Below, one piece after another: positions 15,233 to 40,854 of a stretch of DNA of 64,000 bases (its first letter is position 1; every line of letters starts with the position of its first letter). Position numbers and translations under genes: made by a program. The notes below the pieces were generated by a model, which did not search any database, had not been told where the DNA came from, and was given only the letters and a program-made list of their open reading frames with translations. The stretch comes from Candidatus Nealsonbacteria bacterium (GTDB lineage Bacteria; Patescibacteriota; Minisyncoccia; Minisyncoccales; PWPS01). The stretch spans positions 1,369 to 65,368 of the forward strand of contig PUMP01000059.1 in the NCBI GenBank assembly GCA_003551425.1. Reading direction: 5' to 3'.

Positions 15233-15233
15233 T

Positions 15234-15941: not shown

Positions 15942-16380
15942 AGAAGAAATGAAAAAGATTATTTTTGAGTTCTTCCGTCTCATTGATCCCGATATAAGGG
16001 TGGATTTTCCTGCTTCTGAAGAGAATACGATTAATGTCTGTGTAAAAATAAAAGATCCCGAGTCTTTGATAGGAGAAAAAGGAAGAACCCTGGTTGAGAC
16101 GGAGAGATTATTCAAGATTATAGCAAGAAAGAAGAGCAAGGACCCTCTTTTTGTAAACCTTGATATTAACGATTATAAGAAGAGAAAAGGAGACCAATTA
16201 AAAGAGCTTGCAAACAGTACGGCAGACGAAGTCTCTCTTACCGGGATAGGAAAAAAATTTCCTCCCATGTCTGCTTACGAAAGGAGGATTATTCATATGG
16301 CGCTTGCGGAGAGAGAAGACGTGCTAACAGAGAGCGTAGATGAAGGTTCTCAGAGAAGAGTTGTTATCAAAAAGAGCTAG
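15925..16380 (+). CDS. jag: Jag-like KH/R3H RNA-binding protein
   Basis: KH-like 'LIGEKGRTL' and R3H 'MSAYERRIIHMALAE..DVLTES.DEGSQRRVVI', located after yidC. Confidence 0.8.
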   Translation: MKNMHKEEMKKIIFEFFRLIDPDIRVDFPASEENTINVCVKIKDPESLIGEKGRTLVETERLFKIIARKKSKDPLFVNLDINDYKKRKGDQLKELANSTADEVSLTGIGKKFPPMSAYERRIIHMALAEREDVLTESVDEGSQRRVVIKKS

Positions 16381-18194
16381 TCTTGCAGATCTTTTCCTTT
16401 CTCCTCTTTTATCCTTTCCAGTTCTTCCGGAGAAGATGTTATAATCTGGTCTTCCGTGTAAGATGCATTAATCTCGATAACCACCCTCTTTTGGCCGGCA
16501 AAAAAGATACCTTCTCCTATCTGTCCCTCTAAGAGAACAAATTTTTCTTCATCTGTGAGACTGAAAGTCTTTTGAACTTTGTCAATTACCGCGGATGACT
16601 GTTTAAGAAGTATTTTTAAAGCAGAGTTAGTGACGATCGGCTTACCGTATTCGGACTTCATAAAGTCGGCGACATCTTGGGTTATGGTCGTAACCCCTAG
16701 CCAGTATTTCCTTGACCTTTTGACAAGGCCAAAGAGGAAAGACGCTCCGTCTTCGGTTTGCATCATCCACCAAGCTTCATCTACCACAAGGATACGTTTT
16801 TTTGTTGCGGAAGTCACTGCTTTCCATATGTAACGCATGATAATGAACATTGCCATAGTTCTAAGCTCTTCCTCCAAATTTCTTATTCCAAAGACAGAAA
16901 GATTTCCTTCAAGCTTGACATTGGAGTATTGGTTGAAGAACTTTGCGTAAGTTCCTCTTGAAAACTTTCGAAGACGAAGAATAAGTGATCTTGTTCCTTC
17001 CATTGACTCTAAAACCTCTTCCAGGTCAGAAAAGAGAGGTACTTTTTCCTCCCAAGTATCGGGATCACTGTCTGCCGTTATGTCTTTTGCGGCGTAAGTT
17101 GCAATAATTGCTTGATCTATAATTGCGTCTTCTTCAGGAGTTAATCCCCCAAGCATAATCCTCAAGAGACCAACAAGATTAATCGTATTTGTCCTTAAAA
17201 CCTCCTCTGCCGTTTCTCCTTCCTTGGGAACGGGGATATCAAAGGGATTTATGTGATTATCTGATCCGAGAGAGATATCGTAGAAAGAGCCTCCGGCTGC
17301 TTCAGCCAATGTTTTATATTCATTTTCCGGATCAATAACAATTGCCTCTGTTCCCGTCATGAGCGACCTTAAAAGGGCTAACTTTACAAGATACGATTTT
17401 CCTGACCCCGCTGTGCCGAAGACTACTTCGTTGGGATTTTCAAGATCAAAACGGTCAAAAAGTACAAGAGAGTTGTTGTGCTTATTGATTCCGTATAAGA
17501 TGCCGTCATTAGAGCTGAGCTCGGAAGAGATAAAGGGGAATATACTGGAAAGAGGCTCCGTGTTCATGGGGCTGTGAGTCTGAAGAACATCTCTTCCGTA
17601 CGGAGAGGTGCTGATAAAGCCACTCTTTTGCTGGAAAAGCGCGGACTTGAGATAAACTACTTTAGATTCCAGAATTGATCTTAAGACAGTTTCCGTGTCT
17701 TCCAGGTCTTTTTCAGTCTCTCCATAGATGGTGATATAAAATCCAAACTGAAACATTCTTTCTTGCGCTGATTGAAGCCTGTTTCGCAAGTCTTCCAGGT
17801 CTTGGTGGGCTGTTTCTAGTGCAGGGTCACGAACCATGCCCTTATCTTCATTCTCCATTATCTCTGCCTGTACTTCGGTAAGCTTCTTTCTTAGTTTTTT
17901 AAGGACTTGTGTTGTATCTACGGCGTGGATGAAGAACGCTATATCCATCGGAGCATTTAAGTTAATAATTGAAATTAGCCAGCCGCTTGTTAAATAGTGA
18001 GGATAAGAGAAAACGAAGAAAGAGCGAGAAGTCTTTTCTCCTATCTTAAGCTCTCCCTGTTTTTCTTCTATAAAAGAAGGAGCGATAATATCTTTTATCT
18101 CAAAGAAATCATCCTCCTCTTCTTCAGTAGAAGATTTCTTTTGGGGAATGTCGAGCCCAAACATCTTTTTAAAGTTTTCTATAAAGTTTGACAT
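16377..18194 (-). CDS. VirB4/TrbE-family type IV secretion ATPase, C-terminal 605-aa portion
   Basis: Walker A 'VVFGTAGSGKSYLVK' and Walker B 'ILVVDEAWWMM' (the VirB4 DEAW signature). 'YPHYLTSGWLISIINLNAPMDIAFFIH' is typical of Gram-positive VirB4 (PrgJ/TcpF-like) middle regions. Confidence 0.8.
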   Translation of the reverse strand: MSNFIENFKKMFGLDIPQKKSSTEEEEDDFFEIKDIIAPSFIEEKQGELKIGEKTSRSFFVFSYPHYLTSGWLISIINLNAPMDIAFFIHAVDTTQVLKKLRKKLTEVQAEIMENEDKGMVRDPALETAHQDLEDLRNRLQSAQERMFQFGFYITIYGETEKDLEDTETVLRSILESKVVYLKSALFQQKSGFISTSPYGRDVLQTHSPMNTEPLSSIFPFISSELSSNDGILYGINKHNNSLVLFDRFDLENPNEVVFGTAGSGKSYLVKLALLRSLMTGTEAIVIDPENEYKTLAEAAGGSFYDISLGSDNHINPFDIPVPKEGETAEEVLRTNTINLVGLLRIMLGGLTPEEDAIIDQAIIATYAAKDITADSDPDTWEEKVPLFSDLEEVLESMEGTRSLILRLRKFSRGTYAKFFNQYSNVKLEGNLSVFGIRNLEEELRTMAMFIIMRYIWKAVTSATKKRILVVDEAWWMMQTEDGASFLFGLVKRSRKYWLGVTTITQDVADFMKSEYGKPIVTNSALKILLKQSSAVIDKVQKTFSLTDEEKFVLLEGQIGEGIFFAGQKRVVIEINASYTEDQIITSSPEELERIKEEKGKDLQD

Positions 18195-18195
18195 T

Positions 18196-18825
18196 TTACA
18201 TAATAAGTTCTTCCGGTATTTCCGGGAAGTACCCCTTTTCCGCTTGTTTTGGATGGTGCATGCTCCAAAGCAACTCTATGAGCTCGGAAGAAGTAAGCGG
18301 AACGGAGTGAAGGCTGCACCTGCGAAGCCCCAAAGCCACAAACTCCATTCTTTGGTATAACTGATCTCTTGATCTTTTAAAAACTTCTTCGGAAAGAGTT
18401 CCTTTGCGTGATGCTACAACGTCACGGGTTGAAGTCTTTGTTTCACCGACACTGTAAGGGACAACAACGAAGAAATTCTTGCTATAGACATCTTCTTTTC
18501 TTACAAACTCTTCCAAAAAGTCTATATATCCCGCTGTTTGGTGCCGTAAAAGATCATTAGTCTGTTCTTTCTTGAGCTCTTTAATTTTATCTATATATCC
18601 TCTGATATTGGTTCTCCTGGACTGAACCACAATTTGTAAATAAAAATCCAAAGAGTTTAAAAAGGCTTGGAAGTGATAGATGATTGCCTTTTGCTCTTCT
18701 TCGGACTTTAAGACGAAGTTTATCGATGAAATCATTAAGATTCCCCGTAACTGATTGTTTTTTAGAACAATCAACCCTTCTCTTATTTGCTTTATTTCAA
18801 GTAACTCTTGTGTGCTTAAAGGCAT
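18196..18825 (-). CDS. VirB4 N-terminal-region-like protein (separate 209-aa ORF)
   Basis: 'LEIKQIREGLIVLKNN.LRGILMISSINFVLKSEEEQKAIIYHFQAFLNSLDF.LQIVVQSRR' matches the start of Gram-positive VirB4 ATPases as I recall them. The stop is 1 nt from the next ATG, and the two ORFs are in different frames. Confidence 0.55.
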   Translation of the reverse strand: MPLSTQELLEIKQIREGLIVLKNNQLRGILMISSINFVLKSEEEQKAIIYHFQAFLNSLDFYLQIVVQSRRTNIRGYIDKIKELKKEQTNDLLRHQTAGYIDFLEEFVRKEDVYSKNFFVVVPYSVGETKTSTRDVVASRKGTLSEEVFKRSRDQLYQRMEFVALGLRRCSLHSVPLTSSELIELLWSMHHPKQAEKGYFPEIPEELIM

Positions 18826-18827
18826 AT

Positions 18828-19253
18828 TTAAAATGTTTCAATACGTGAGCTCACCTTGCCGAGCCTACTGCCTTTTTTTAATTTTTTCTCTTCCTCCCTT
18901 TCTTCTGTTTTTTTCTTCTTTGGGAGAGACCTCTTCTTTCTTTCTGTAGATATTTTAACCGGTTTTTCTTTTTTTTCCCATACATACTCTTTTGAAGCTG
19001 TAGAGAAAGCAATATAGTTTTTAATGTAGTTAGAAAGAGGCATTTCGTTAATTTTTAAAAAAGCCAAAGCGACTCCTCCTGTAGCCACAAAGGCGGAAAT
19101 GAAAAAGAAAAGGAGCAAACTTACTTCTCTTAATATAAGATAAAGGAAAAAGATAATAAAAGCCGCGATTCCAAGCGGGATAATTTGTTGGAAAGTAGCA
19201 GGGCCCACTATTTTTGCCTCATGCTCAATATTCCTTGGCACTTTATATCTCAT
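18828..19253 (-). CDS. PrgI-family (VirB3-like) small membrane protein
   Basis: 'MRYKVPRNIEHEAKIVGPATFQQIIPLGIAAFIIFFLYL' plus two TM helices, directly upstream of VirB4 as in Gram-positive T4SS loci. Confidence 0.6.
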   Translation of the reverse strand: MRYKVPRNIEHEAKIVGPATFQQIIPLGIAAFIIFFLYLILREVSLLLFFFISAFVATGGVALAFLKINEMPLSNYIKNYIAFSTASKEYVWEKKEKPVKISTERKKRSLPKKKKTEEREEEKKLKKGSRLGKVSSRIETF

Positions 19254-19331: not shown

Positions 19332-19381
19332 AAAAGCGGAGTATGCACACTACAAAATTGTTATATAAGGAGGTTTTTAAA

Positions 19382-20623
19382 ATGATATGGTGGATTCTTT
19401 TTGTACTGTTGTTGGTAGGAATCTTTCTCCTCTCTTTCTATTCTCTCCGGTATTCTTTTGGAAAGGTGGAAGAAGGGACGACCAGGGTTATTATGAGCCT
19501 TGGGCAGTTTGATAACATCAAAATGGTCTGGAGGGGCCATTTTATGGATGAAGACTTTAACATTCTAAGAGAAGAAGAGGACGATGGAAGAAGAAGAAAA
19601 AAGATATCTGGTCGAATTTTTGGCGGATTCTTCTTTATGGGGCTTTATCCTTTTAAGAAGATCCATAGCTATTCTATTACGTGGAGTAGTAGCCATGGTC
19701 GAAAAGAAGGAAAAGCTGGGATAAGTGAAGAATTCAAGAAGATAAACCTCAAGCCCGAGGTTTATAGGTCGCTGGTAGAGAACGCTGAGACAAAAGAAAG
19801 GGTGCAATGCAAGGTTGAATACCTTGTGACTCTCAGAATTAATAATCCCTACAGATTTTTATTCGTTAGCCCTGATAACTCCCTAGAAGAAGCGTTGTCC
19901 CAAATAGATACACTGATACGTGACCTGGTTGGAAGTTATTCCTTTGAGAAGCTGTATACGCTTGAAAGACAGAAGATTTGGGAAAAAGTAAAAGACAGGA
20001 AGCTGTTACGAGTGTCCCAGCAAGATCCGGGGACGCTTCAAAAGTGGGGAATAGGAGTAGCGAAAGAGGGGATTACCTTTATAGAGGTCTCCCCCATGGA
20101 CAAGAGAATTACCGAAGCTCTTGCAGAGGAGCAAAAAGAAGACTTCGAGGCGAAAGGAGCCTCGAAAAGGATAGCAAAGAAAGTAGTATATATGATGGCA
20201 GAAGGTGCTGGCAAGACTCCTAAGCAAATCGCAAGAGATATAGAAAGCGATGCCGAGACGAGAAATAAGTTCTTTTCTTGGTGTCAAGAAATGGTAAGGA
20301 AAGATCTTGCCATGAGATCCGGTAGTTATATTAATGTTGACGTGGAAAGTGGAGGCGAGCTGGAGAAAACAATTCTTAATACAATTGCGGGCTTTCTGAG
20401 AATGCCACAGGGTCCGCAAGGAAAAGGAAATGAGCAAGGAGGCGTAGAAAAAGAAGAGAAGAAAAAGCCTAAGAATGATGTCGATGCAGACGAAGATGAA
20501 ATAGATGAAGAAGAGCAAGAAAACGAAGAAAGCAACAAAGAAGAAGAGGGCTCCGAGGTTTCATACAGCCCGGAACTTATGAAAAGAAATAGAGAGAGAA
20601 TACTAAAAGAACAGGGCCGTTAA
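19382..20623 (+). CDS. SPFH/band-7-like membrane protein with an acidic C-terminal tail
   Basis: Start chosen at the ATG preceded by AAGGAGG (MIWWILFVLLL = TM). 'FGKVEEGTTRVIMSLGQF' and 'VEYLVTLRINNPYRFLF...LSQIDTLIRDLVGSYSFEKL' resemble SPFH domains. The C-terminus is D/E/K-rich. Confidence 0.5.
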   Translation: MIWWILFVLLLVGIFLLSFYSLRYSFGKVEEGTTRVIMSLGQFDNIKMVWRGHFMDEDFNILREEEDDGRRRKKISGRIFGGFFFMGLYPFKKIHSYSITWSSSHGRKEGKAGISEEFKKINLKPEVYRSLVENAETKERVQCKVEYLVTLRINNPYRFLFVSPDNSLEEALSQIDTLIRDLVGSYSFEKLYTLERQKIWEKVKDRKLLRVSQQDPGTLQKWGIGVAKEGITFIEVSPMDKRITEALAEEQKEDFEAKGASKRIAKKVVYMMAEGAGKTPKQIARDIESDAETRNKFFSWCQEMVRKDLAMRSGSYINVDVESGGELEKTILNTIAGFLRMPQGPQGKGNEQGGVEKEEKKKPKNDVDADEDEIDEEEQENEESNKEEEGSEVSYSPELMKRNRERILKEQGR

Positions 20624-20648
20624 CCCCTTATAACAATTCAACTTTAAA

Positions 20649-20675
20649 GGCCGACAATCACTGTCGGTCTTCTTC
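20649..20675. terminator. Hairpin (GGCCGACA-atcac-TGTCGGTC) between convergent genes
   Basis: A 7/8-bp stem followed by TTCTTC. It is the only structured element in the 67-nt convergent spacer. Confidence 0.4.
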
Positions 20676-20690
20676 ATGGACAAGAAAGAG

Positions 20691-21101
20691 TTAAGTTATG
20701 GGCTCTCTGTAAGGATCGCTACTCCTTTTCTCTGTTGCTTTCTTCCTCTTAGGGAGAGACTTTTTCTTTTCTTTAACATGAGGAGAGGAGATGTGCGGCA
20801 ATACTTTTGAGCTTAACGTTCTTTTAATTTTTCGCGCTCTTTCTTCACTTACTTCTAACTTCTTAACAAAATAAGAAACCATATCTTCTTTCTTTAACTT
20901 TCCATGAGCGTAATCGGATACGGCTTTAGAAATAATTCCTCCGGGAGAAGAAGCCATTATTTTCTTTCTTTCTTCTTTCTCTTCGCACTTAACCCATTTT
21001 TGAAAAGACTTGTCTTGCTTAGACTTTAATTTCTTGCTTTTTTCAACAATCTCTTTAATTATTTCTGCGACGTTTTGAGGATAAGTTATTTTTTCACTCA
21101 T
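20691..21101 (-). CDS. Hypothetical Lys-rich cytoplasmic protein (136 aa), last gene of the pilin/M23 operon
   Basis: ORF with a 10-nt spacer to the upstream gene. I recognise no motif. Confidence 0.5.
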   Translation of the reverse strand: MSEKITYPQNVAEIIKEIVEKSKKLKSKQDKSFQKWVKCEEKEERKKIMASSPGGIISKAVSDYAHGKLKKEDMVSYFVKKLEVSEERARKIKRTLSSKVLPHISSPHVKEKKKSLPKRKKATEKRSSDPYREPIT

Positions 21102-21111
21102 ATGAAATTAA

Positions 21112-23331
21112 TTAATCATCTCTTAGTTCTTCAGCTTCTATATATGCAGGATGAGCTGTGATAATGTTAAAGTTATGTCTTCTTTGCCTGCGTGCCTCTT
21201 CGGGGAAGTCATTAAATGTTTCTATAAGATTCCTTAATCCCTTATAATTATATTCTGCTACTGCTTGGATGCTGCGAGAATTCTGAGTAAGAGCGTCAGC
21301 AACGGCTTCGTTTCTGTAAGCGGAAGGAATCATGTTTCTTTGTTCTCCGGGGCTCATATTTAGCACCAGATTAACATCATCTCTGTATCGATCGTCTAAT
21401 CGCCTTTCCAGTTCTGTTTGAATTATTCTGTTTCTTTCCTCTTCAGATTGCCCTTGCCTCTTCGGGGTTTCTCGCGCAACATCTTCCCAGGTAGGTTGTT
21501 CTTCTGCGTGCGGGGCTATTTTTTTGTATTGACTTATTTGATTATTTACATTTCTTAGTGCGTTTGCTTGGCTTCTTTGCCTTCTATTCATCTCTCTTTG
21601 AATTCTATCATTGTAATCGGCATTTGATTCTCCTGTATTTTGTGGAAAATCTCCTTGTACCGCTCCCCTGGTGATGTTTTCTTGAGATGCTTCAACTTCC
21701 CTTCTTTTCCTTTGTAATTTCTCTATTTCGTCTCCAATAGCTAATCTAGCTGCATTCTCTTGATATTTATCACCGGTATCAGCAATTTTTTTCAAATCAC
21801 CAGCCTTTCCCCCGGCCCTTCTTATTTGATCCGGTCTTTGGAACTCTGACGGGGTTTTCTTTGCCTCTTCTTCGGCTTCACTTTTTCTTCTTTTTGCCCA
21901 CCTGGCAAGAGATGGTGCTGCTAATTTTGCTATCGGCATCTTTCTCATTCGTTCCGCCATGTTTTCTACACCTTCCGGCACATTGGCTCTTTCTTGTGAT
22001 CCCTTAGGAACAAAGCTATGCTTGAAAGCTCGTCCTGCAGTTCCGCTAATTGAAGCACCAAATGTTTTGGCCTGGCTTATTGCGGCATCTACTCCTGCCG
22101 GTATAAACTTCTTTCCGAAAAAGAGAATTGTAATGAAGTAAATTAAAAGAATGACGTAATAAACAATCCCGCTATCCAGGAAGATTCGTGATATGCCAAC
22201 AACCCACCCTGTCTCTCCTAGCTCTGCTTCTCTAATAGAGCCTTCAAGAACATCCACCATTCCTACCATATTAAATCCCAAGATAAGCAGAAAGGCGAAA
22301 ACGATACCAGCAAAGAGCCACTGCAAAAGGCTTCTTAGCCATAACTCAAAATAGCCGTAGATCTTTGTGCCGGGAAAAATCAAACAGATGAAGGCAAGAG
22401 GAGCAATAACCGCAAGTATTTGTATGATAAAGATTCTTACAACGAAAATCACAAAGAAGAGAAAGAAAGCGCCGGCAAGAAGCATGTTTATCAGTCCCTG
22501 AACAAACATTGATAATATCTCACCAAACCAGATGAATCCGGCTGCTATAACCGCAAATTGCACCGCTACGGATAAATAAGGGATTAGCATTGCTAAGGAA
22601 AATACCCCTAGAGCAACCGCAAATCCAATTATTTGTTCTGTTGTACCGGTAAAAAGCGTGTCCATTGATGCAGTAACAAGGTTTGTTGCTTCTTGGGGAC
22701 CGTCTCTTTCACAGCAACACGGTTCTTCTCCTTCGCAGAATTGGGGATCTCCAGGGACTGTCCCTGACGGGCACACGCCTTCTCCCGGATAAAATTCTAT
22801 ATGTGTACAATCGGGCTCTATTACAAGTTGCTCTGAAATAGTGCTAAAGAAAACATTTGAGACATCAATTCCCATTCCTACAAAAACCAAAGAGAAGTTT
22901 ATAAGCAAGGCGACGCCGATTAGCCTGGGGAATGCTTTCTTAAGCCCAAGATTGTCAAACTTTAATATGATAGAGATAGCGATAATAACAAACGCTATGA
23001 TAAGCAGCATATTAGAGATACCGAGAACAAACTCCCATCCTACCTCTATAATTCGATGATCCAAGGTAAGCACCTCCGGTGTGGCTGTAATAATTGACAC
23101 CAAGTATTCGGTAGCCATCTTTAAGAGCCCGAAAGAGAGAATTAAAAACAAGAACAAAAATATTGCCAGAGCCAGAATTGGTCCCACTGCTTCAGATAGC
23201 CCTTCAAGCTGTTTGTGCCCAAGGTCAAAGACAAAGCCATCCGTTATTTTTGGCAATAAAAGAAATAATAGAAAAATAAAGGCAGAAGAGAGCAGCTTTA
23301 GCTTTGACTTATATTTTTCCTTTAAAAACAT
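21112..23331 (-). CDS. Large polytopic membrane protein, possibly a VirB6/TrbL/PrgH-class T4SS component
   Basis: 739 aa. Signal/TM N-terminus, roughly 8-10 hydrophobic helices, a 7-Cys loop 'CTHIEFYPGEGVCPSGTVPGDPQFCEGEEPCCCE', and a ~320-aa R/Q/E-rich cytoplasmic tail. The assignment rests on topology and context only. Confidence 0.45.
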   Translation of the reverse strand: MFLKEKYKSKLKLLSSAFIFLLFLLLPKITDGFVFDLGHKQLEGLSEAVGPILALAIFLFLFLILSFGLLKMATEYLVSIITATPEVLTLDHRIIEVGWEFVLGISNMLLIIAFVIIAISIILKFDNLGLKKAFPRLIGVALLINFSLVFVGMGIDVSNVFFSTISEQLVIEPDCTHIEFYPGEGVCPSGTVPGDPQFCEGEEPCCCERDGPQEATNLVTASMDTLFTGTTEQIIGFAVALGVFSLAMLIPYLSVAVQFAVIAAGFIWFGEILSMFVQGLINMLLAGAFFLFFVIFVVRIFIIQILAVIAPLAFICLIFPGTKIYGYFELWLRSLLQWLFAGIVFAFLLILGFNMVGMVDVLEGSIREAELGETGWVVGISRIFLDSGIVYYVILLIYFITILFFGKKFIPAGVDAAISQAKTFGASISGTAGRAFKHSFVPKGSQERANVPEGVENMAERMRKMPIAKLAAPSLARWAKRRKSEAEEEAKKTPSEFQRPDQIRRAGGKAGDLKKIADTGDKYQENAARLAIGDEIEKLQRKRREVEASQENITRGAVQGDFPQNTGESNADYNDRIQREMNRRQRSQANALRNVNNQISQYKKIAPHAEEQPTWEDVARETPKRQGQSEEERNRIIQTELERRLDDRYRDDVNLVLNMSPGEQRNMIPSAYRNEAVADALTQNSRSIQAVAEYNYKGLRNLIETFNDFPEEARRQRRHNFNIITAHPAYIEAEELRDD

Positions 23332-23353
23332 TTATCTTTAATTATTCTTTATT

Positions 23354-24805
23354 TTATTCCCACCAACCTTCTTCGCATGAATATAGTCCCCACAAACCTT
23401 CCCAGCAGACATTAATTGTTACATCTTCGGTCATTTCAATGTTAGGGATATATCCATCGTTAATAGCGGGATCTCCTTCTTTTGACCATTCGAAAGTTGT
23501 TCCCCACCATTCGGAGCCAACCTCATGAAGTGCTACAATATTACGGTGTTCCGGAATCTCTGTGCGGCATCTATTTCTAGCTTCCACGAACCCGCAATCA
23601 ATGTACCCATGATGAGGGGGGCGGTGCTTTGTCTCTATTCTCATAATGTCAAGCTCGATACCCCAGTCATCTTCATCTGCTTCTCCAATATGGCCCCGAT
23701 AAGGGTTAATGGTCAGAGTAAATGTCTCTATGCCGTCGGGAAGATCCAGTGGTCCGGAGTAGCACCGATTAGGAGAGCTGTCTCTGCAATAGGTGCGAGA
23801 AATCTCTACGGCACCTTCCTCCGGGTCTGTTGTTCCTATTGCCTCTCTTTCTTGTCTTCTTTCAATCTCCATGCAATCTATTGATCTTCCAAATCCGAAA
23901 ATTCCTTCCTCCAGATCAACCGTAGGTATTGAGCCGCGGCTTAATTTTTCACCACAAGCGACTTCTGGAGCTCCAATCTCCCACCAGTTTGCTGTTGCTT
24001 CATAAAGATCGGCTATGGAAGTTCCTCCTTCTTTATATAAGCCCCTGGGGTCCGGTCTCATTTTCTCACCGGGACCAAACCTTTCCGCCTGATGGCTGCC
24101 AATTCCTATTATATCTCCTCCTTGCCCCATTGTTTGTTCTATTTCTACCGGAGGACTATATCTCTGATACCCAAGAGATATGCCGTCTTCTAGTTGTTTC
24201 ATTTCATCCGGCGGTATTGCCGTATATCCCTTTACCGATTTTGGAGAATGATCTTCGTGTATTTCATCGGCTTCTAGTTGTATGTTGTATATATCCTTGT
24301 TTCTTATATAAACCGTGGCAATGTGATCTTCATGGTTTTTCTTGGCGTAAAACTCCATAATATCAACGGGTTCTCCTTCAAGGTCTGCGAGACTTAGATC
24401 GGAAATATAGACTTCGTCATGAATGCTAAAAGTTACGGGAGAGATTCTTACCAGTTCGGGGTTTATCATGCTTAATATTACCCAAGAAGATAAAAGCAAT
24501 ACTAGCCCTATTACTGCGGACTGGATTCTTGACAAAGCATCTTGCATCACGGCGGGCTTTCCGGCAGAGATTGTGTATTGAAATCCGGAGAATACCAGGA
24601 TGCCAAATACCAGCAATATGCCGATAATAATTCCCCACTCGTAAAAGTATGCGATAAGTTCGTGAAGTGGCATATCGCGCCGGAACTCTATGGTGGGAGA
24701 GTCTGGCCAAGCAACTTCCGTATTGGCAATAGCCACGGAGAAAGACGCAAAAAATAAAAAGAGAGAAGAAAAAAGCGTTTTTAAATTAAGTATTTCTTTT
24801 TTCAT
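23354..24805 (-). CDS. Secreted chimeric protein: N-terminal pilin-like two-helix module + ~360-aa Cys/Trp-rich C-terminal domain
   Basis: Signal peptide, then 'LHELIAYFYEWGIIIGILLVFGILVFSGFQYTISAGKPAVMQDALSRIQSAVIGLVLLLSSWVILSMINPELV', which resembles the T4SS/CPR pilin-like fold. It ends in 'EEGWWE'. Confidence 0.55.
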   Translation of the reverse strand: MKKEILNLKTLFSSLFLFFASFSVAIANTEVAWPDSPTIEFRRDMPLHELIAYFYEWGIIIGILLVFGILVFSGFQYTISAGKPAVMQDALSRIQSAVIGLVLLLSSWVILSMINPELVRISPVTFSIHDEVYISDLSLADLEGEPVDIMEFYAKKNHEDHIATVYIRNKDIYNIQLEADEIHEDHSPKSVKGYTAIPPDEMKQLEDGISLGYQRYSPPVEIEQTMGQGGDIIGIGSHQAERFGPGEKMRPDPRGLYKEGGTSIADLYEATANWWEIGAPEVACGEKLSRGSIPTVDLEEGIFGFGRSIDCMEIERRQEREAIGTTDPEEGAVEISRTYCRDSSPNRCYSGPLDLPDGIETFTLTINPYRGHIGEADEDDWGIELDIMRIETKHRPPHHGYIDCGFVEARNRCRTEIPEHRNIVALHEVGSEWWGTTFEWSKEGDPAINDGYIPNIEMTEDVTINVCWEGLWGLYSCEEGWWE

Positions 24806-25497
24806 GCTTCGTTTTCTGTTTTAATCTCTATGGAATCCATTATATGGTTTACTTGTTCAGAAAAATCTTCCCAAAGACTGGAGATTATGAAAACGGAAAC
24901 CATGTATCTTTCGTTATCAATATGTATTATTTGTTCTTTTGCTCGAACCTCTCCTATCGGGCTTTTATACTTTGTTTTAAATATTTTTCCATGTTTTGTT
25001 TCTTCTTCTTCCAAAATCTCACGGGAAGTATCTTTCACAAAAATATCTTCCGTTTTTTTCAATAAATCACCTTCTTCCGCACCATCTTCTCTTAAAACAG
25101 TCATTCCCGCCTTTGCCTCAAAAGGCCCTACAAGAAAAGAGGTAAAAAGGATTTCAATGTTCTCCTGATCCAAGTCTTCTATATCTTCTACAGATTCCCA
25201 GTGCGAAGGGTATGCTACTCTTATTTTGTCATTTGGCCCTGTAAATTCTTCATATTCTATCTCTTCGGCGCTTTTTAGTTCTTCGTTATTTAGGCTTCGA
25301 TATTCATCCAGATAATCTCCGCTAATAATGTCTTCCATGGAAGGAAGAGAATATTCCGAAGTGGCTATTTCTCTTTCCGGAAACCTGGGGTGAGTAACGC
25401 CCTCTTTATTCCCGGTTTGCTGGCTGTGAAAATAGGTAGAAAGAACCAGGAAAGCTATCATCAAGAAGCTTATTATAACTATTTTTTTATCCGACAT
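24802..25497 (-). CDS. Bitopic membrane-anchored acidic protein (231 aa)
   Basis: A single N-terminal TM (IVIISFLMIAFLVLSTYF) followed by a ~200-aa soluble domain. Size and topology are compatible with a VirB8/PrgL-class component, but no motif supports this. Confidence 0.5.
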   Translation of the reverse strand: MSDKKIVIISFLMIAFLVLSTYFHSQQTGNKEGVTHPRFPEREIATSEYSLPSMEDIISGDYLDEYRSLNNEELKSAEEIEYEEFTGPNDKIRVAYPSHWESVEDIEDLDQENIEILFTSFLVGPFEAKAGMTVLREDGAEEGDLLKKTEDIFVKDTSREILEEEETKHGKIFKTKYKSPIGEVRAKEQIIHIDNERYMVSVFIISSLWEDFSEQVNHIMDSIEIKTENEA

Positions 25498-25505
25498 TTT
25501 TATGA

Positions 25506-28500
25506 TTATAATTCAATTTGCCACCAAAATCCATATATGCTTGTATCATATCCTATCATAGGCATTCCCATTGTTAAAATAAGCCATCCGAAGAAAAGGA
25601 TGACAAATCCGATTCCTACCGCTCTCCAAACAGCCTTTACTCTTGCCAAGACCTCTGTTCCCAAGGAAGGAGAAAGGTAAAATATTGCCCCTGTTGCCAG
25701 TATCATTAATCCAATAGCGACGGGAAAGAGGTTCCAAAGAACAAAATCGATTAATACTTTAAATAATATCAATAAATGCTTGGGCTGGCAAGATTCTCTT
25801 TCATTCCAGTCGGTATCCGGGCTGTTATATGTCCTGCCACAAGGAACAAGGCCGACGCCGTCAACCTCTACTTCGTAGTAATTGAAAGACCACCAGGGAG
25901 AAAAGTCTCCGCTTTCTTCGCACTCGCTGTCAAGGCAAGATTTTACTCTCCACTCATAATCTCCCAGGTCAAATAACCTTAAAAAGAAATTATTATCGGA
26001 GATAATCTCTTTTTCTTTCTCTCCGTCGGGAAAAATAACTTCGTATTTATAATAATTTGCTCCCCTAATAGCGTTCCAAGAAACATCGATATTTCTTTCT
26101 TCGGTAAAAATCTCGGCGTTATCTTGAGGGCTGGGGACAGAAGGAGCGTAAAGAGTAAAGGTGGTGAACTCTACCGGAGGAGTAAAGAATCCTCCGCAAT
26201 AATCGGTGCCCGGATCGGCACAAGTTTCCACTGTCCAAGAATAAGATTCTTCTGTTTTAATTTTCGGATAGTCAAGACGGATCCTTGTCGTTGAAGTATG
26301 ACTTCTTTTTATCTTATCTCCTTCTTTGTTAAATAACTCGAATACATAGGATTTTGCCCCCGAAACAGCTCCCCACTCTGCGTTAAGGGGAATTAAAACT
26401 TCTTGGGCTTTGTTATAAGGAGTTGCGGTTTTATTTAAGTCGGGAGGACGTCCGGTAGTGGTAAATTTATGCCAATCCGTCCAAGTGTCGTTACAATCGT
26501 CTCCGTTTTCGTCGTAGCAAGACCTGAGCCGCCACCTGTAATCTGTGTTAAGAGCAAAGTCATCTATGTCTATCCTGGTATTGGTATCTTGAAGGTGTCT
26601 TTCTATTGTTCCTCCTTCTCCGTCCATTCTTTCCAGCTGAAAATAATAGGAGTGAGCACCAAATGGCTTGTTCCACTCAAAATAAGCGCTGGGATGAATG
26701 GCGATAGGATTTCTCCCCTCTGGATCGTTAAGAGGAGAGAGTCCGGAGGGGTTCTCAAGACCCCCGGAAACAATAAACTTCCATATTTGACCATAATCGG
26801 TGCAGTCTTTTCTGGAGTGGTCTTTACAAGCGGCGATTTGCCATCCGTATATCTCTCCTTTTTCATCGAATAGTCCGACATTTTTATTAATTAATTTTGT
26901 AGGAGGGTCTCCTCTATGGATAGGAACAAGACTAGGATCGTGAATGGGGACAGGTTCGCAAAGACCTCCCAAGCGAACACGGTCGGGATGACACTCCAGT
27001 TCACCGCCTATTTCTTTATAGGCATAAAGCAAATAAGCCTTATAATCTTCCTCTCTTTCATGGTCACACCAAGTTGGGTTTGCGTCTTTAAAGTCTATAG
27101 GGTTATGATGAGTCCCCGCCATACTTTCCGGATCTACCCATCCGGAATCATAAGGGGAAAGCGGTTCGGGAGCCTCGTTGGTTTGAAATCCCGGCCAACT
27201 GCTCCACTTTCCGCAGTCTGTACCATCAGTGCTACAACAAGCCTGTACTTTCCAGTTATGGGTGTCGCCGGGCCTAAGAAGGCAGCGGTCTGCATTGAAG
27301 TTATTACGGGAAACCGTGGTTTCAAGAGCTTTCCCCGAAGAGCTTGAGGTTAGCTTATAGGAAGAGCCTGCTATCTTTTCACTATTATCTTTGTTTAAGG
27401 CAGCTAAATCTATCCTTGAATCGGAAGGAGATTTCTCTAGAAGAAGATCGTTTTCGTAAGGATCTTCCATTTCGCCGTTATAGAGATCTTCTGGAGGAGT
27501 CTCTTTATCTGATACATATTTTGGCACATAGCCTGGAACATAATAAGTTGCTCTCCCCATGTTGCTATGATTCCTAATATAATTAATAGTTTCTGCAAAG
27601 ACTAGCTGATTACGATCAAGATATTTAAGAGGATCGTCATGTCCACGATCAACACCACCGCTCCAGCAAGAACCCAAACAAACATCAAGATGCAAATGAA
27701 CTCCAGTAGAGGCTCCGGTAGTTCCCATTCTTCCGATTTGTTGTCCTTGCTCTACTTTATCGCCTGGACTAACGAACATACTATGGAGATGAAGATACTG
27801 CGTATATAGATTATCTCCACTGCCCGTTATATCACCGTGATTGATTCTTACAGTATTTCCCGCGCCTCTTCCAGGGGTACCGATATATCTTGCTATAGTT
27901 ACTTTACCTTCTGCTGCTGCATATATAGGTGGATTAGTAAATCCTGATTGAACAAAGTCAGTCCCAAGATGAAAATGGCCAACATCCATGTCCCAGCCAC
28001 TGCGATCTTGGGCAAAATTAGAAGTAACTCTTATATTTTTTAATTCTAATGGCCAAGCAAGAAGTCCTTCTTCCGGAGCAGGAGGAGGGTCGCCAATAGG
28101 CTGAGAGGGGTCGTCGGGATCGGGATGAAGAAAATCTCTGGTGGTATTGTCTATCTTTATGTTATAAGAGCTTGGTCCCGTATCTTCATTCCATCCTGAG
28201 ACATTGTCCCAAGCAAGAGCTACGGGAAGATATATGTCATCATTTCCTTCATAAGGATAATCGGACTGAAGAATTGTTGTTGCTGGATTGGCGTAATACT
28301 CTTCGTTTTGCGGAGCATCTAAACACTCACCGGCACAGGAGCAATCATTTTTTGTAGCATCACACTTTTCCCAAGAGTTGCAATTTTCTTTAGTTACCCA
28401 ACGAGTATTACCGCATCCATCTTCTTGCTGTCTCTGCAATGTTCCTCCGCAGCTACCAACACAGCGCGTGTTATTGGTATTACTCCAGCTGGGCTCACAC

Positions 28501-28604
28501 TCTTCGGCATTAGCCAAGTTTATCCCCAAAGCAAGGAAGGCGGTTATTATTAAAAAAAGAGAAAATAATAAGAGAGTTTTTATGTTGGCTGGCTTAAATG
28601 ACAT
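25506..28604 (-). CDS. 1032-aa secreted multidomain protein: Cys-rich N-terminus, M23 peptidase, five Cys/Trp beta-modules, C-terminal 'LVPCG' pilin-like membrane module
   Basis: Signal peptide. M23 motifs 'HLGTDF', 'GNTVRINHG' and 'YLHLHSMFVSPGDKVEQGQQIGRMGTTGASTGVHLHLDV'. Repeats of the form 'W[KR]V..C....C....W..F.T'. The C-terminus has 'GLVPCG....C..HLLILFKVLIDFVLWNLFPVAIGLMILATGAIFYLS'. Confidence 0.75.
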   Translation of the reverse strand: MSFKPANIKTLLLFSLFLIITAFLALGINLANAEECEPSWSNTNNTRCVGSCGGTLQRQQEDGCGNTRWVTKENCNSWEKCDATKNDCSCAGECLDAPQNEEYYANPATTILQSDYPYEGNDDIYLPVALAWDNVSGWNEDTGPSSYNIKIDNTTRDFLHPDPDDPSQPIGDPPPAPEEGLLAWPLELKNIRVTSNFAQDRSGWDMDVGHFHLGTDFVQSGFTNPPIYAAAEGKVTIARYIGTPGRGAGNTVRINHGDITGSGDNLYTQYLHLHSMFVSPGDKVEQGQQIGRMGTTGASTGVHLHLDVCLGSCWSGGVDRGHDDPLKYLDRNQLVFAETINYIRNHSNMGRATYYVPGYVPKYVSDKETPPEDLYNGEMEDPYENDLLLEKSPSDSRIDLAALNKDNSEKIAGSSYKLTSSSSGKALETTVSRNNFNADRCLLRPGDTHNWKVQACCSTDGTDCGKWSSWPGFQTNEAPEPLSPYDSGWVDPESMAGTHHNPIDFKDANPTWCDHEREEDYKAYLLYAYKEIGGELECHPDRVRLGGLCEPVPIHDPSLVPIHRGDPPTKLINKNVGLFDEKGEIYGWQIAACKDHSRKDCTDYGQIWKFIVSGGLENPSGLSPLNDPEGRNPIAIHPSAYFEWNKPFGAHSYYFQLERMDGEGGTIERHLQDTNTRIDIDDFALNTDYRWRLRSCYDENGDDCNDTWTDWHKFTTTGRPPDLNKTATPYNKAQEVLIPLNAEWGAVSGAKSYVFELFNKEGDKIKRSHTSTTRIRLDYPKIKTEESYSWTVETCADPGTDYCGGFFTPPVEFTTFTLYAPSVPSPQDNAEIFTEERNIDVSWNAIRGANYYKYEVIFPDGEKEKEIISDNNFFLRLFDLGDYEWRVKSCLDSECEESGDFSPWWSFNYYEVEVDGVGLVPCGRTYNSPDTDWNERESCQPKHLLILFKVLIDFVLWNLFPVAIGLMILATGAIFYLSPSLGTEVLARVKAVWRAVGIGFVILFFGWLILTMGMPMIGYDTSIYGFWWQIEL
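25880..27350 (-). repeat. Five tandem protein-level modules (~90-110 aa each) inside the 1032-aa ORF
   Basis: The signature recurs five times: HNWKVQACCSTDGTDCGKWSSWPGFQT, YGWQIAACKDHSRKDCTDYGQIWKFIVS, YRWRLRSCYDENGDDCNDTWTDWHKFTT, YSWTVETCADPGTDYCGGFFTPPVEFTT, YEWRVKSCLDSECEESGDFSPWWSFNY. Confidence 0.6.
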
Positions 28605-29445
28605 TTTTTAGAACTTTGACAAGCAGCTTCCATTCTTTTATGCTTAATTTTTCCGCCCTGCTTTTAGGGTCAACACCACTTTCTTTGATCAAAGAATAAA
28701 GCTCTTCTTTTTTTATTAAGTTTAGCCCCTTTTTGCCTTTAATGTCAAACTGGAAGTTAGTTAAGATTTGTTTTCGGGGATGAGAGAATCCCTTTTTAAC
28801 TATTCGGAAAAAATCTTTTTTGAATTCTTCGTCAAAGATTTCTTCTTTTGGCGTGATTTTTATAATTGACGACTCTACGGAAGGGGACGGCCAAAAAGAG
28901 TTTCTGGAAACATGGGAAACGATCTCGGGCCTGGCATAGAACTGTACGGAAACGGACAAAACGCTCATATTGGGAGGCTTGGCAATTATTCTTTCCGCGA
29001 CTTCTCTTTGAACGGTAAGTACAAGAGAGCTAGGCGGACATCTTTCTTCTAAAAACTTTCTTATTACGGGAGAAGTAATGTAATAGGGAAGATTTGCTAC
29101 AACCTTGTAGTCTCTGAAAGGGACGGGAAAACTTAAAATATCTTCGTGAATTATCTTTATGTTTTCTTTGTTTTTTATGAGATCACGGAGTACCGACACC
29201 AGTCTCCTGTCTTTTTCTACCGCTGTAACGCGCTTTGCTTTTTTTGCCAAGGGGAGAGTAAGAGTTCCGATGCCGGGACCGACCTCAACAACTTCATCTT
29301 TCTTTGAAAGATCGGCGCTGTCGCATATTTTCTTTACGACACTTTTGTCTATGACAAAGTTTTGTCCCAGTGATTTTTTCGGATTTACAAAATAAGAATC
29401 AAGAACTTTTTTTAGGTTTTCTTTGTTTGTTAGGTCTATTTCCAT
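28594..29445 (-). CDS. rsmA: 16S rRNA (adenine1518/1519-N6)-dimethyltransferase
   Basis: 'LGQNFV.D', the SAM motif 'VVEVGPGIGTLT' and 'VANLPYYITSP'. The stop overlaps the start of the 1032-aa ORF by 11 nt. Confidence 0.9.
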   Translation of the reverse strand: MEIDLTNKENLKKVLDSYFVNPKKSLGQNFVIDKSVVKKICDSADLSKKDEVVEVGPGIGTLTLPLAKKAKRVTAVEKDRRLVSVLRDLIKNKENIKIIHEDILSFPVPFRDYKVVANLPYYITSPVIRKFLEERCPPSSLVLTVQREVAERIIAKPPNMSVLSVSVQFYARPEIVSHVSRNSFWPSPSVESSIIKITPKEEIFDEEFKKDFFRIVKKGFSHPRKQILTNFQFDIKGKKGLNLIKKEELYSLIKESGVDPKSRAEKLSIKEWKLLVKVLKNVI

Positions 29446-32202: not shown

Positions 32203-32207
32203 GTGTT

Positions 32208-40341: not shown

Positions 40342-40854
40342 TTAATCTTCTTCTATCGTACAATCTATTTTATAAATCCCCTCATCCCACCAGTCTTCAA
40401 ACCCCCAGCTGTCTTCTTCCGTCATTCCCATACCTTCAAGAATAAGCCCTACTGTGACCCATGCGGTGTAAGCGATAAGAACGCCGGCGATAGCTACAAG
40501 GATAACAGTTCTTCCTTTTTTATATCCCTCGGGATTGGCAGAGTTCGTATAAAGCGTGATTCCACCGAAGATTATAAGGATAATGGCGGCTGCGGGAATC
40601 ATTCTTGTCATAAAGAAATCGACTACATTGCCGAAAATTACAAACAAGTGGCATAACTGACAGTCCGGCAAATGATCTTCGGGTCCGCAAGGAACAAGCC
40701 CGACACTGACATCATAACATGTACTGTCATGCCAATGATATCCTGCCTCTTCACACTCTTCTTTGGTGTTAAGGCCCTCAACCTCGTAATTTGCCAAGGC
40801 AAGAAGGGGAAGAGCCATGAAAAGAAGAACAACTATCAATATCCTTTTTAGCAT
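40342..40854 (-). CDS. Secreted 'LVPCG'-type pilin-like protein (170 aa)
   Basis: Signal peptide, a Cys-rich head, then 'GLVPCG......C.LCHLFVIFGNVVDFFMTRMIPAAAIILIIFGGITLYTNSANPEGYKKGRTVILVAIAGVLIAYTAW'. This is the same module as the C-terminus of the 1032-aa protein. The tail is Trp-rich, 'WGFEDWWDEG'. Confidence 0.6.
   Translation of the reverse strand: MLKRILIVVLLFMALPLLALANYEVEGLNTKEECEEAGYHWHDSTCYDVSVGLVPCGPEDHLPDCQLCHLFVIFGNVVDFFMTRMIPAAAIILIIFGGITLYTNSANPEGYKKGRTVILVAIAGVLIAYTAWVTVGLILEGMGMTEEDSWGFEDWWDEGIYKIDCTIEED

What the first reader, a model, noticed from the sequence alone, without database searches (positions are those of the whole stretch)
23354..24805. Pilin-like module used at opposite ends of two neighbouring proteins, with a shared C-terminal Trp-Trp tail
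The 483-aa protein carries the pilin-like two-helix module at its N-terminus, right after the signal peptide (approx. nt 24430..24760). A ~360-aa Cys/Trp-rich domain follows. In the 1032-aa neighbour the module is C-terminal. All three pilin-module proteins in the window end in an aromatic Trp-Trp tail: '...SCEEGWWE*' (483 aa), '...SIYGFWWQIEL*' (1032 aa) and '...SWGFEDWWDEGIYKIDCTIEED*' (170 aa, 40342..40854). A conserved terminal WW patch on otherwise unrelated cargo suggests a shared recognition, assembly or sorting determinant.
Basis: seen in the sequence. Interest (0 to 1): 0.55.

Follow-up and report, generated by a model that had tools for sequence, protein, structure and literature searches.

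The report
Trp-rich tail of CPR secretion-system pilins

Summary
The window comes from a Nealsonbacteria-like CPR chromosome. Next to dnaA it carries the known Patescibacteria monoderm-type T4SS locus: VirB4, a TrsD-like protein, PrgI, a polytopic protein and VirB2-like pilins.

All three ORFs, their module positions and their terminal WW are real. Only these 3 of 58 ORFs have WW in the last 25 residues.

An unbiased profile search found 11,792 cluster representatives. The WW belongs to two module subtypes.
- **Type A** (the 1032-aa protein): the module sits at the extreme C-terminus of large Ig-repeat proteins and ends ...GYxxGIFGxWWxIxF-COOH. The first Trp is invariant in 31 aligned modules.
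- **Type B** (the 170-aa pilin): TM2 is followed by ...W[WFY]xIxCP. The first Trp is at least 90% conserved and the Cys is invariant. Any cargo follows after the motif.

The 483-aa protein is a third subtype (YFYEWG...INPEL) with no post-TM2 Trp motif. Its terminal WW closes a lineage-specific subdomain that is absent from its only close ortholog and from positional orthologs.

So the tail is part of the module, not a cargo-independent sorting tag. Cys covariation suggests it folds back onto the start of helix 1. In solved F-type pili both termini face outward, which would explain cargo at either end. This is a new variant of a known kind, of moderate interest.

The parts
23354..24805 (-). 483-aa type C pilin-fusion protein: signal peptide, VirB2-like two-helix module, then a 365-aa Cys/Trp-rich extracellular domain
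   Evidence: ORF. PF18895 hit at residues 50-113. Hydropathy. Orthologs.
24452..24724 (-). Type C pilin module of the 483-aa protein (residues 28-118). It has an invariant YFYEWGI...GFQY...INPEL block, no LVPCG motif and no Trp motif after TM2.
   Evidence: Alignment A7 shows the block invariant in 4 orthologs. L011 has the same module as a free 137-aa pilin ending just after INPD.
23357..24451 (-). C-terminal cargo domain of the 483-aa protein (residues 119-483). It has no Pfam family, and its last ~120 residues are unique to this genome.
   Evidence: No Pfam hit. P0002 stops at the equivalent of about residue 360. It does not match the Ig-like repeats of the 1032-aa protein.
23360..23365 (-). 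Terminal WW codons of the 483-aa protein (residues 481-482): idiosyncratic, one of three WW pairs in a Trp-rich domain
24802..25497 (-). 231-aa protein with an N-terminal TM segment and no family match. It is conserved between the large type A protein and the pilin or polytopic gene in related loci.
   Evidence: Positional orthologs of 205-228 aa in L001, L009, L010 and L011.
25506..28604 (-). 1032-aa type A protein: signal peptide, Cys-rich N-terminus, M23 peptidase, five Ig-like Cys/Trp repeats, C-terminal pilin module plus tail
27681..27974 (-). Peptidase_M23 domain (residues 211-308), with HxxxD (HLGTD) and HxH (HLHLD) motifs visible in the sequence
   Evidence: Pfam E 3.4e-21. NCBIfam peptidoglycan endopeptidase models.
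25869..27428 (-). Ig-like repeats of about 97 aa (residues 393-912), each with Y.W.V..C...C..W..F.T
   Evidence: Self-profile: three full repeats plus two partial ones. Ig_Rha78A_N in 24 of 53 family members.
25554..25856 (-). Type A pilin module of the 1032-aa protein (residues 917-1017): GLVPCG..P.T.WNE..C..KH, then two TM helices
   Evidence: AF2 helices at 34-70 and 72-109 of the 125-aa fragment, pLDDT 83.
25509..25553 (-). Type A C-terminal tail GYDTSIYGFWWQIEL (residues 1018-1032), matching the family consensus G[YF]xxGIFGxWWxIxF-COOH. WW is at residues 1027-1028 (nt 25521-25526).
   Evidence: Right-aligned consensus: W at -6 in 71%, W at -5 in 61%, I at -3 in 57%, F at -1 in 63%. W invariant in A5. 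G1018 and W1027 at least 90% conserved in 53 full-length homologs.
40342..40854 (-). 170-aa type B free pilin, lying between the CCA-adding enzyme gene and rpsO, 11.7 kb from the nearest T4SS-cluster gene
   Evidence: The same position is conserved in L006, L007 and L011.
40423..40704 (-). Type B pilin module (residues 51-144): GLVPCG...C..CH, then two TM helices
   Evidence: AF2 helices at 65-103 and 108-141, pLDDT 80.
40345..40422 (-). Type B post-TM2 tail (residues 145-170), with W155-W156 (nt 40387-40392) and invariant C165
   Evidence: A4: C56, C65, C68, H69 and C165 invariant, W155 at least 90% conserved. Cys covariation.
16377..19253 (-). T4SS core genes: VirB4-like ATPase (16377-18194), TrsD-like protein resembling the VirB4 N-terminus (18196-18825), and PrgI/VirB3-like protein (18828-19253)
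   Evidence: Pfam and NCBIfam hits
21112..23331 (-). 739-aa polytopic membrane protein in the position of VirB6/PrgH, with no family hit
   Evidence: Positional orthologs in L001, L009, L010 and L011.

Best explanation
**Shown**
- The three proteins are VirB2-like (PF18895-type) pilin-module proteins of the chromosomal, dnaA-proximal type IV secretion system typical of Patescibacteria.
- The Trp-aromatic 'tail' of the 1032-aa and 170-aa proteins is the last conserved element of the module itself.
- Type A modules end G[YF]xxGIFGxWWxIxF-COOH. Type B modules continue W[WFY]xIxCP after TM2. Type C modules (the 483-aa protein) have neither.

**Inferred**
- After Sec export and signal-peptide cleavage the module inserts as a helical hairpin, with a basic loop in the cytoplasm and both ends outside.
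- The post-TM2 segment, with hydrophobic side chains alternating (W-x-I-x-F/C), folds back across the membrane interface onto the N-terminal LVPCG / CxxCH segment at the start of helix 1.
- In type B this clasp is locked by a disulfide between the tail Cys and the second Cys of CxxCH. In type A, Lys and a C-terminal Phe occupy those two positions and the Trp pair supplies the packing and interfacial anchoring.
- The clasp ties the two termini together non-covalently or by a disulfide. This is functionally reminiscent of head-to-tail cyclisation of TrbC/VirB2.
- In F-type pili both pilin termini lie on the filament exterior. Cargo can therefore be hung on either end: the M23 peptidase and Ig repeats on the N-terminal side in the 1032-aa protein, and the Cys/Trp domain on the C-terminal side in the 483-aa protein.
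- The large type A protein would thus be a T4SS-anchored or pilus-anchored surface enzyme, a VirB1-like wall hydrolase or host-wall-attacking head.

**The third tail.** The terminal WW of the 483-aa protein is unrelated, a chance feature of a Trp-rich, lineage-specific subdomain.
For: - **Family membership and context.** PF18895 hits. T4SS genes adjacent. dnaA, rnpA, yidC and ksgA flank the cluster, as published for Paceibacteria T4SS (PMC12102498).
- **Tail conservation, without profile bias.** The query profile A2 stopped before the tail. It found 11,792 representatives. The first Trp is invariant or near-invariant.
- **The motif is internal when cargo is C-terminal**.
- **Clasp.** CxxCH co-occurs with a tail Cys in 54 of 56 proteins, and the other two are truncated. 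None of the 72 proteins with Cxx[K/R...]H has a tail Cys. Four Cys are invariant in type B.
- **Hairpin.** AF2 models show two long helices with pLDDT above 90.
- **Termini outside in F pili.** PMC5018250.
- **One type A gene in a fixed position after ksgA** in L001, L010 and L011, and two tandem paralogs in L009 whose left flank is cut off.
- **Type A proteins are homologous over their whole length, with varying enzymatic heads**.
- **The WW of the 483-aa protein is not conserved**.
Against: - No pilus has been seen for this lineage, and no structure links PF18895 to VirB2/TraA. Profile searches against PDB sequences and Foldseek gave nothing significant.
- The AF2 monomer models place the tails with only low to moderate confidence: pLDDT 46-60 for type A and 60-73 for type B.
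- I could not read coordinates to measure the proposed contact.
- The Cys covariation coincides with the split into two subfamilies. It counts as essentially one evolutionary event, not many.
- Only the best 150 of 11,792 representatives were examined.
- A 900-aa N-terminal cargo may be incompatible with polymerisation. The type A module may be only a membrane anchor.
Confidence: 0.6

Rival explanations
1. The type A ending WWxIxF-COOH, together with the two-TM module, is a dedicated C-terminal sorting or processing signal. Its free, position-fixed C-terminus would be recognised by a T4SS component or a peptidase that loads the protein onto the machine or trims or cyclises it, as TraF does for TrbC.
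For: - The motif is anchored at a constant distance from the C-terminus: W at -6, I at -3, F at -1.
- AF2 leaves it unstructured in the monomer, as expected for a partner-binding peptide.
- Heads of the large proteins vary: M23, C39-like, GH5, C70.
Against: - In type B the homologous motif is internal, with cargo downstream.
- The large type A proteins are one homologous family, not diverse cargo.
- There are one or two per locus in a fixed T4SS position.
- No signal-peptidase-like, sortase-like or TraF-like gene was detected among the cluster genes scanned.
- Short free pilins also carry the type A tail.
Confidence: 0.13
2. The Trp pair is only a generic aromatic belt: interfacial Trp/Tyr/Phe residues that pin the end of TM2 at the outer membrane surface, with no specific tertiary contact or recognition role.
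For: - The motif lies within about 10-20 residues after TM2 on the extracellular side.
- The second position tolerates W, F, Y and other residues.
- The type C module works without it.
Against: - Generic belts are not conserved at a single column.
- Here the first Trp is invariant or near-invariant, together with flanking G, I and F/C positions.
- The tail Cys covaries with a Cys at the start of helix 1.
Confidence: 0.2
3. The three WW tails are all coincidence, produced by Trp-rich composition in secreted CPR proteins.
For: - All three proteins have about 3% Trp against 0.93% in the window.
- The motif was chosen post hoc.
- The WW of the 483-aa protein is indeed not conserved.
Against: - WW occurs in 46 of 73 independent type A tails, against 0.65% of equal-length windows in the same proteins.
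- The first Trp is invariant in alignments of sequences that are 36-50% identical to the window's module.
Confidence: 0.03

Closest known systems
Patescibacteria/CPR T4SS with VirB2-like pilins (Pfam PF18895 T4SS_pilin; Quinonero-Coronel et al. 2025, PMC12102498; Wang et al. 2023, PMC10633639)
   Same: - Same gene set: VirB4, TrsD-like, PrgI, a polytopic VirB6-position protein and PF18895 pilins.
- Same chromosomal position next to dnaA, rnpA and ksgA.
- No relaxase or coupling protein was seen among the scanned neighbours.
   Different: - In the passages I searched, those papers treat the pilins as small proteins or arrays.
- Not found there: the pilin module as the C-terminal end of ~1000-aa Ig-repeat/enzyme proteins, the N-terminal-module fusions, the three module subtypes, and the conserved Trp tail with its Cys clasp.
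- The Pfam model (71 positions) stops at TM2 and misses the module of the 1032-aa protein altogether.
TrbC/VirB2/TraA conjugative pilins of diderm T4SS (PF04956; F-pilus structure, PMC5018250)
   Same: - Signal peptide, two long hydrophobic helices, a short basic loop and both termini on the trans side.
[quoted passage not shown]
- The proposed tying-together of the termini is functionally reminiscent of TrbC/VirB2 cyclisation (established knowledge, not tested here).
   Different: - No detectable sequence similarity to any solved pilin, and no PF04956 hit.
- No evidence of cyclisation or C-terminal trimming.
- The host is a monoderm.
- Large cargo domains are fused to the module.
Mbov_0395-family pilin-like conjugal transfer protein of Mycoplasma ICEs (NCBIfam NF045849)
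   Same: Weak hits of the TM hairpin of the 483-aa and 170-aa proteins (E 0.004 and 0.001). This fits the monoderm (MPF_FATA-like) ancestry of the system.
   Different: Scores of 17-18 bits are far below the 40-bit cut-off. There is no LVPCG or Trp tail information, so this is a lead only.
T4SS-associated cell-wall hydrolases (VirB1, PrgK, TcpG)
   Same: The 1032-aa protein carries an M23 peptidoglycan endopeptidase domain with its catalytic motifs, is membrane-anchored and is encoded in the T4SS locus.
   Different: - A different enzyme class: M23 rather than lytic transglycosylase or CHAP.
- Anchored by a C-terminal pilin module rather than an N-terminal TM helix.
- Only 5 of 53 homologs have M23; others have C39-like, GH5 or no recognisable head.
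C-terminal protein-sorting domains (LPXTG/sortase, PEP-CTERM/exosortase, GlyGly-CTERM/rhombosortase)
   Same: A conserved, strictly C-terminal, membrane-associated module on large secreted proteins.
   Different: - Two TM helices rather than one.
- The signature motif follows the TM segments instead of preceding them.
- No basic tail and no cognate sorting enzyme found.
- One homologous protein family per locus rather than many cargoes.

Membership tests
Pfam PF18895 T4SS_pilin (CPR VirB2-like pilin) | Match to the family HMM above the gathering score | tested here: met
   - 483-aa protein: 28.6 bits against a cut-off of 26.6, so met.
- 170-aa protein: 18.3 bits, E 0.0025, below the cut-off. 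Its ortholog P0004 and 11,792 profile hits tie it to the family.
- 1032-aa protein: no Pfam hit. However, 16 of 53 full-length homologs hit PF18895, and BLASTP to the 170-aa pilin gives E 9e-9.
Pfam PF18895 T4SS_pilin (CPR VirB2-like pilin) | Signal peptide followed by two hydrophobic helices joined by a short basic loop | tested here: met
   Hydropathy segments in all three proteins. AF2 helical hairpins with pLDDT above 90 in the helices.
Pfam PF18895 T4SS_pilin (CPR VirB2-like pilin) | Encoded with VirB4, VirB3 (PrgI) and VirB6-position genes | tested here: met
   The 483-aa and 1032-aa genes lie in the cluster. The same order is found in L001, L009, L010 and L011. The 170-aa pilin is 11.7 kb from the nearest cluster gene, at a conserved CCA-enzyme/rpsO site.
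TrbC/VirB2/TraA conjugative pilins (PF04956 and solved pili) | Sequence similarity to the family model or to solved pilins | tested here: not met
   No PF04956 hit. Profiles A4 and A5 find no pilin in PDB sequences at E up to 10.
TrbC/VirB2/TraA conjugative pilins (PF04956 and solved pili) | Structural match to the pilin fold | tested here: inconclusive
   Foldseek against the PDB: best E 1.6, generic helical hairpins only. The AFDB library was unavailable.
TrbC/VirB2/TraA conjugative pilins (PF04956 and solved pili) | Polymerises into an extracellular filament, with C-terminal processing or cyclisation | not testable with these tools
   Needs microscopy and mass spectrometry.
C-terminal sorting signals (sortase/exosortase type) | Signature motif, a single TM helix and a basic tail, with a cognate sorting enzyme and many unrelated cargo proteins | tested here: not met
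   - There are two TM helices and the motif comes after them.
- No sorting enzyme was found among the scanned neighbours.
- The carriers are one homologous family, and there is one type A gene in the window.
Peptidase M23 (LytM-type peptidoglycan endopeptidase), for the 1032-aa protein | Pfam PF01551 match with the HxxxD and HxH zinc ligand motifs | tested here: met
   E 3.4e-21 at residues 211-308. HLGTD and HLHLD are visible in the translation. Catalytic activity was not tested.

The most novel reading that the evidence does not exclude
The type A unit (a two-helix pilin module plus the fixed G[YF]xxGIFGxWWxIxF-COOH ending) may be a previously unrecognised CPR-specific C-terminal targeting and anchoring domain. 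It would load large surface enzymes (M23, C39-like, GH5 heads on an Ig-repeat stalk) onto the T4SS pilus or its base. The secretion system that is essential for epibiotic growth would then display wall-degrading enzymes toward the host cell. The Trp tail would be the element recognised or clasped during assembly.
Probability: 0.15. Interest if true: 0.7.

Novelty: new variant of a known kind. Interest (0 to 1): 0.4.

Why it matters
The T4SS and its pilins are among the few machines shown to be essential for the epibiotic life of Patescibacteria, and what they do is unknown. Three points follow from this analysis.
- The pilin module comes in three subtypes.
- Two subtypes carry a conserved extracellular Trp/Cys clasp that current models (Pfam PF18895) do not cover.
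- One conserved locus component is a ~1000-aa enzyme-bearing protein ending in a pilin module.

These give concrete targets: tail mutants, disulfide mapping and localisation of the M23 head. They also improve annotation, because the module of the 1032-aa protein is invisible to Pfam. For the original claim, the analysis separates a real conserved motif from a coincidental look-alike.

Tried and rejected
- **Fragment search.** The search for homologous proteins with the 122-aa C-terminal fragment of the 1032-aa protein returned nothing. Whole-protein searches for the 483-aa and 170-aa proteins found only one ortholog each.
- **Locus search.** The search for related loci with the mixed alignment A2 failed for lack of a conserved stretch. 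The closer alignment A3 gave only 4 loci.
- **Repeat origin of the 483-aa ending.** I tested whether ...SCEEGWWE is a remnant of the Ig-like Cys/Trp repeat of the 1032-aa protein (...SECEESGDFSPWWSF). The repeat profile does not match the 483-aa protein (E 0.34), so this was rejected.
- **Cargo domain of the 483-aa protein.** Pfam found no family.
- **Structural link to VirB2/TraA.** Foldseek against the PDB was not significant. PDB sequence profiles found nothing. AFDB was not available.
- **Measuring the proposed tail-helix 1 contact.** Model coordinates are not exposed, and tail pLDDT is low.
- **Source annotations.** The names given are uninformative: hypothetical protein, and one evidently wrong 'di/tricarboxylate transporter'.
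- **General sorting signal and pure chance.** Both were considered and down-weighted (see the rival explanations).
Full report
**1. What is in the sequence**

The three ORFs exist as described: 483 aa (23354-24805, minus strand), 1032 aa (25506-28604, minus) and 170 aa (40342-40854, minus). They end ...SCEEGWWE...IYGFWWQIEL and ...DWWDEGIYKIDCTIEED.

- Pfam assigns PF18895 (T4SS_pilin) to residues 50-113 of the 483-aa protein, above the gathering score. It assigns it to residues 76-138 of the 170-aa protein, below the gathering score.
- The C-terminal module of the 1032-aa protein is missed by Pfam even when scanned alone. It aligns to the 170-aa pilin with E 9e-9, including a shared VGLVPCG motif.
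- A profile of the three modules finds no fourth copy among all ORFs of at least 50 aa in the window.
- Each protein has a Sec-type signal peptide and two strongly hydrophobic segments separated by a short basic loop. All three C-termini are therefore predicted outside the cell. AF2 models of the 170-aa protein and of the 1032-aa C-terminus show the expected helical hairpin.
- Among 58 non-overlapping ORFs, WW occurs in six. It occurs within the last 25 residues only in these three.

**2. Genomic context**

The window (39% GC) is a CPR chromosome close to Candidatus Nealsonbacteria. The gene order is:
- dnaA, rnpA, yidC and an R3H protein;
- on the minus strand, a VirB4-like ATPase, a TrsD-like protein resembling the VirB4 N-terminus, and PrgI/VirB3;
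- an SPFH protein on the plus strand;
- a 136-aa protein, a 739-aa polytopic protein, the 483-aa pilin fusion, a 231-aa protein and the 1032-aa M23 protein;
- ksgA and a LysM-M23 gene.

This is the Patescibacteria T4SS described by Quinonero-Coronel et al. (PMC12102498). That system is monoderm MPF_FATA-like, has VirB2-like pilins detected with PF18895, and lies near dnaA, rnpA and ksgA. Wang et al. showed it to be essential in Southlakia (PMC10633639).

The same order recurs in L001 (the sister genome GCA_003557645.1), L009, L010 and L011.

**3. Are the tails conserved?**

*Close orthologs in the sister genome.*
- The 1046-aa ortholog ends ...GIYGPWWQINF.
- The 139-aa ortholog ends ...WGFHDWWQSGLYTIECPVD.
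- The 372-aa ortholog of the 483-aa protein (53% identity) stops at the equivalent of about residue 360. It ends ...PPEDEIPED, and only a 30-nt gap separates it from the next gene.

*Wider search.* I searched 1.84 billion cluster representatives with a profile of the five modules, cut before the tail so that it could not select for Trp. This gave 11,792 hits at E up to 0.001. Of the best 150, 130 have one module. They fall into three types.

*Type A* (74 proteins, including the 1032-aa protein).
- The module is at the extreme C-terminus. Most proteins are 500-1668 aa, and a few are free pilins of 108-202 aa.
- Aligned from the right, the ending is ...LG[FY]x[IV]GIFGxWW[QE]IxF-COOH. W is at -6 in 71%, W at -5 in 61%, I at -3 in 57% and F at -1 in 63%.
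- 46 of 73 tails have WW and 61 of 73 have W[WFY]. Equal-length windows elsewhere in the same proteins have these in 0.65% and 2.0% of cases.
- In an alignment of 31 modules that are 36-50% identical to the window's, the first Trp is invariant. In 53 full-length homologs, G1018 and W1027 are at least 90% conserved.

*Type B* (54 proteins, including the 170-aa protein).
- Most are free pilins of 115-280 aa.
- TM2 is followed by ...GV[AS][ED]WTGL..GW[FWY]xIxCP.
- In 30 aligned sequences C56, C65, C68, H69 and C165 are invariant, and W155 is at least 90% conserved.
- The second aromatic position varies. Syntenic orthologs of the 170-aa pilin have WF (L006, L007) or WY (L011).
- When type B modules carry cargo (up to 579 aa), the cargo follows the CP. 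The motif is then internal.

*Type C* (the 483-aa protein and P0002).
- There is no LVPCG motif and no Trp motif after TM2. The module is YFYEWGI...GFQY...INPEL.
- Positional orthologs in L009 and L010 share this module as an invariant block. Their Cys-rich C-terminal domains are unrelated and end ...GPKTN and ...APTKK.
- L011 has the bare module as a 137-aa pilin ending right after INPD.

The terminal WW of the 483-aa protein is therefore one of three WW pairs in a Trp-rich, lineage-specific subdomain. It is not homologous to the other two tails.

**4. What the tail probably does**

- Proteins with C-x-x-C-H at the start of helix 1 have a tail Cys in 54 of 56 cases, and the two exceptions are truncated. 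None of the 72 proteins with a non-Cys residue at that position (mostly Lys) has one.
- Type A keeps the first Cys pair (LVPCG...CQ). The extra pair in type B is therefore most simply C68-C165. This would be a disulfide joining the tail to the N-terminal juxtamembrane segment.
- In type A those two positions are occupied by Lys and the C-terminal Phe.
- The alternating W-x-I-x-(F/C) pattern fits a short strand lying on that segment at the outer membrane surface.
- I infer a clasp that ties the two extracellular ends of the hairpin together.

Caveats:
- The covariation coincides with the subfamily split, so it amounts to about one evolutionary event.
- AF2 tail confidence is low to moderate: pLDDT 46-60 for type A and 60-73 for type B.
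- Model coordinates could not be inspected.

**5. Why the module sits at either end**

In the F pilus the inter-helix loop lines the lumen, and both pilin termini are on the outside (PMC5018250). If the CPR module behaves likewise, or simply stays in the membrane as a hairpin with both ends out, cargo at either terminus ends up extracellular.

Both architectures are common in the family: 68 C-terminal and 15 N-terminal among 130. The contrast between the two neighbours is therefore a family-wide property, not a peculiarity of this locus.

**6. The large type A protein**

- The 53 full-length type A proteins are homologous throughout, with Ig-like repeats of the form Y.W.V..C...C..W..F.T. The 1032-aa protein has five of them.
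- The N-terminal heads differ: M23 in 5, C39-like in 2, GH5 in 1, C70 in 1 and none recognised in the rest.
- One copy, or two tandem copies in L009, sits in the same position in the T4SS locus, directly after ksgA wherever the upstream flank is available.
- This argues for a dedicated T4SS component, an anchored wall hydrolase or host-directed enzyme. It argues against a general sorting tag for many cargoes.

**7. Comparison with known systems**

- The locus and the pilin family are known.
- In the passages I searched, I did not find any description of the three module subtypes, the conserved Trp/Cys tail beyond the 71-position Pfam model, or the pilin module as the C-terminal end of large enzyme-bearing proteins.
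- There is no sequence or significant fold link to solved VirB2/TraA pilins. 'VirB2-like' therefore rests on Pfam's naming, topology and gene context.
- Weak sub-threshold hits to the Mycoplasma ICE pilin-like family NF045849 fit a monoderm ancestry.

**8. Verdict**

- A real, conserved, extracellular Trp-aromatic determinant exists in two of the three proteins. It is part of the pilin module, not a cargo-independent tag.
- The tail of the flagged 483-aa protein is a coincidence.
- This is a new variant of a known kind, of moderate interest.

Noticed in passing
window 13218-29445: The whole T4SS cluster lies between dnaA/rnpA/yidC/R3H and ksgA, next to the replication origin. This matches what has been reported for Paceibacteria.
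   Followed up: partly
window 16377-18825: The VirB4 function appears split. A 209-aa ORF matches the N-terminal part of VirB4 and TrsD models, and a separate 605-aa ORF carries the ATPase. The same split is present in L001 and L011.
   Followed up: partly
window 19322-20623 (+): An SPFH/Band_7 protein with an acidic, Lys/Glu-rich tail is encoded on the opposite strand in the middle of the T4SS cluster. It is conserved in L001 and absent from L011.
   Followed up: no
window 21112-23331 (-): The 739-aa polytopic protein in the VirB6/PrgH position has no Pfam or NCBIfam hit. It carries a Cys-rich extracellular loop (CTHIEFYPGEGVCPSGTVPGDPQFCEGEEPCCCERD) and a long charged C-terminal region.
   Followed up: no
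window 25869-27428 (-); alignment A6: The 1032-aa protein has five Ig-like repeats of about 97 aa, each with a conserved Cys pair and Trp ladder. Homologs swap the enzymatic head (M23, C39-like, GH5, C70) on the same stalk.
   Followed up: partly
window 29523-30524 (+); L011 7971-9056: A second wall hydrolase (LysM-LysM-M23) sits just beyond ksgA. In L011 the equivalent gene is LysM-CHAP, so the lytic domain is exchanged at a conserved position.
   Followed up: no
window 30889-37358 (-): Three consecutive large ORFs (437, 959 and 752 aa) have no Pfam family. Counterparts of the first two (443 aa, and one of at least 966 aa cut by the locus end) are present in L001.
   Followed up: no
window 40705-40785 (-), residues 24-50 of the 170-aa pilin: Relative to its ortholog P0004, the 170-aa pilin has a 26-residue insertion with two extra Cys (…EECEEAGYHWHDSTCYDVS) just before the LVPCG motif. 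This is probably an added disulfide loop on the exposed N-terminus.
   Followed up: no
L009 540-7347: Two tandem type A paralogs (1142 and 1108 aa, both with M23) lie in one T4SS locus. Both end in the WWQI[KQ][LI] tail.
   Followed up: partly
P0086: A 141-aa type B pilin is named 'di/tricarboxylate transporter' by its source. This is probably a mis-annotation driven by the hydrophobic helices.
   Followed up: no
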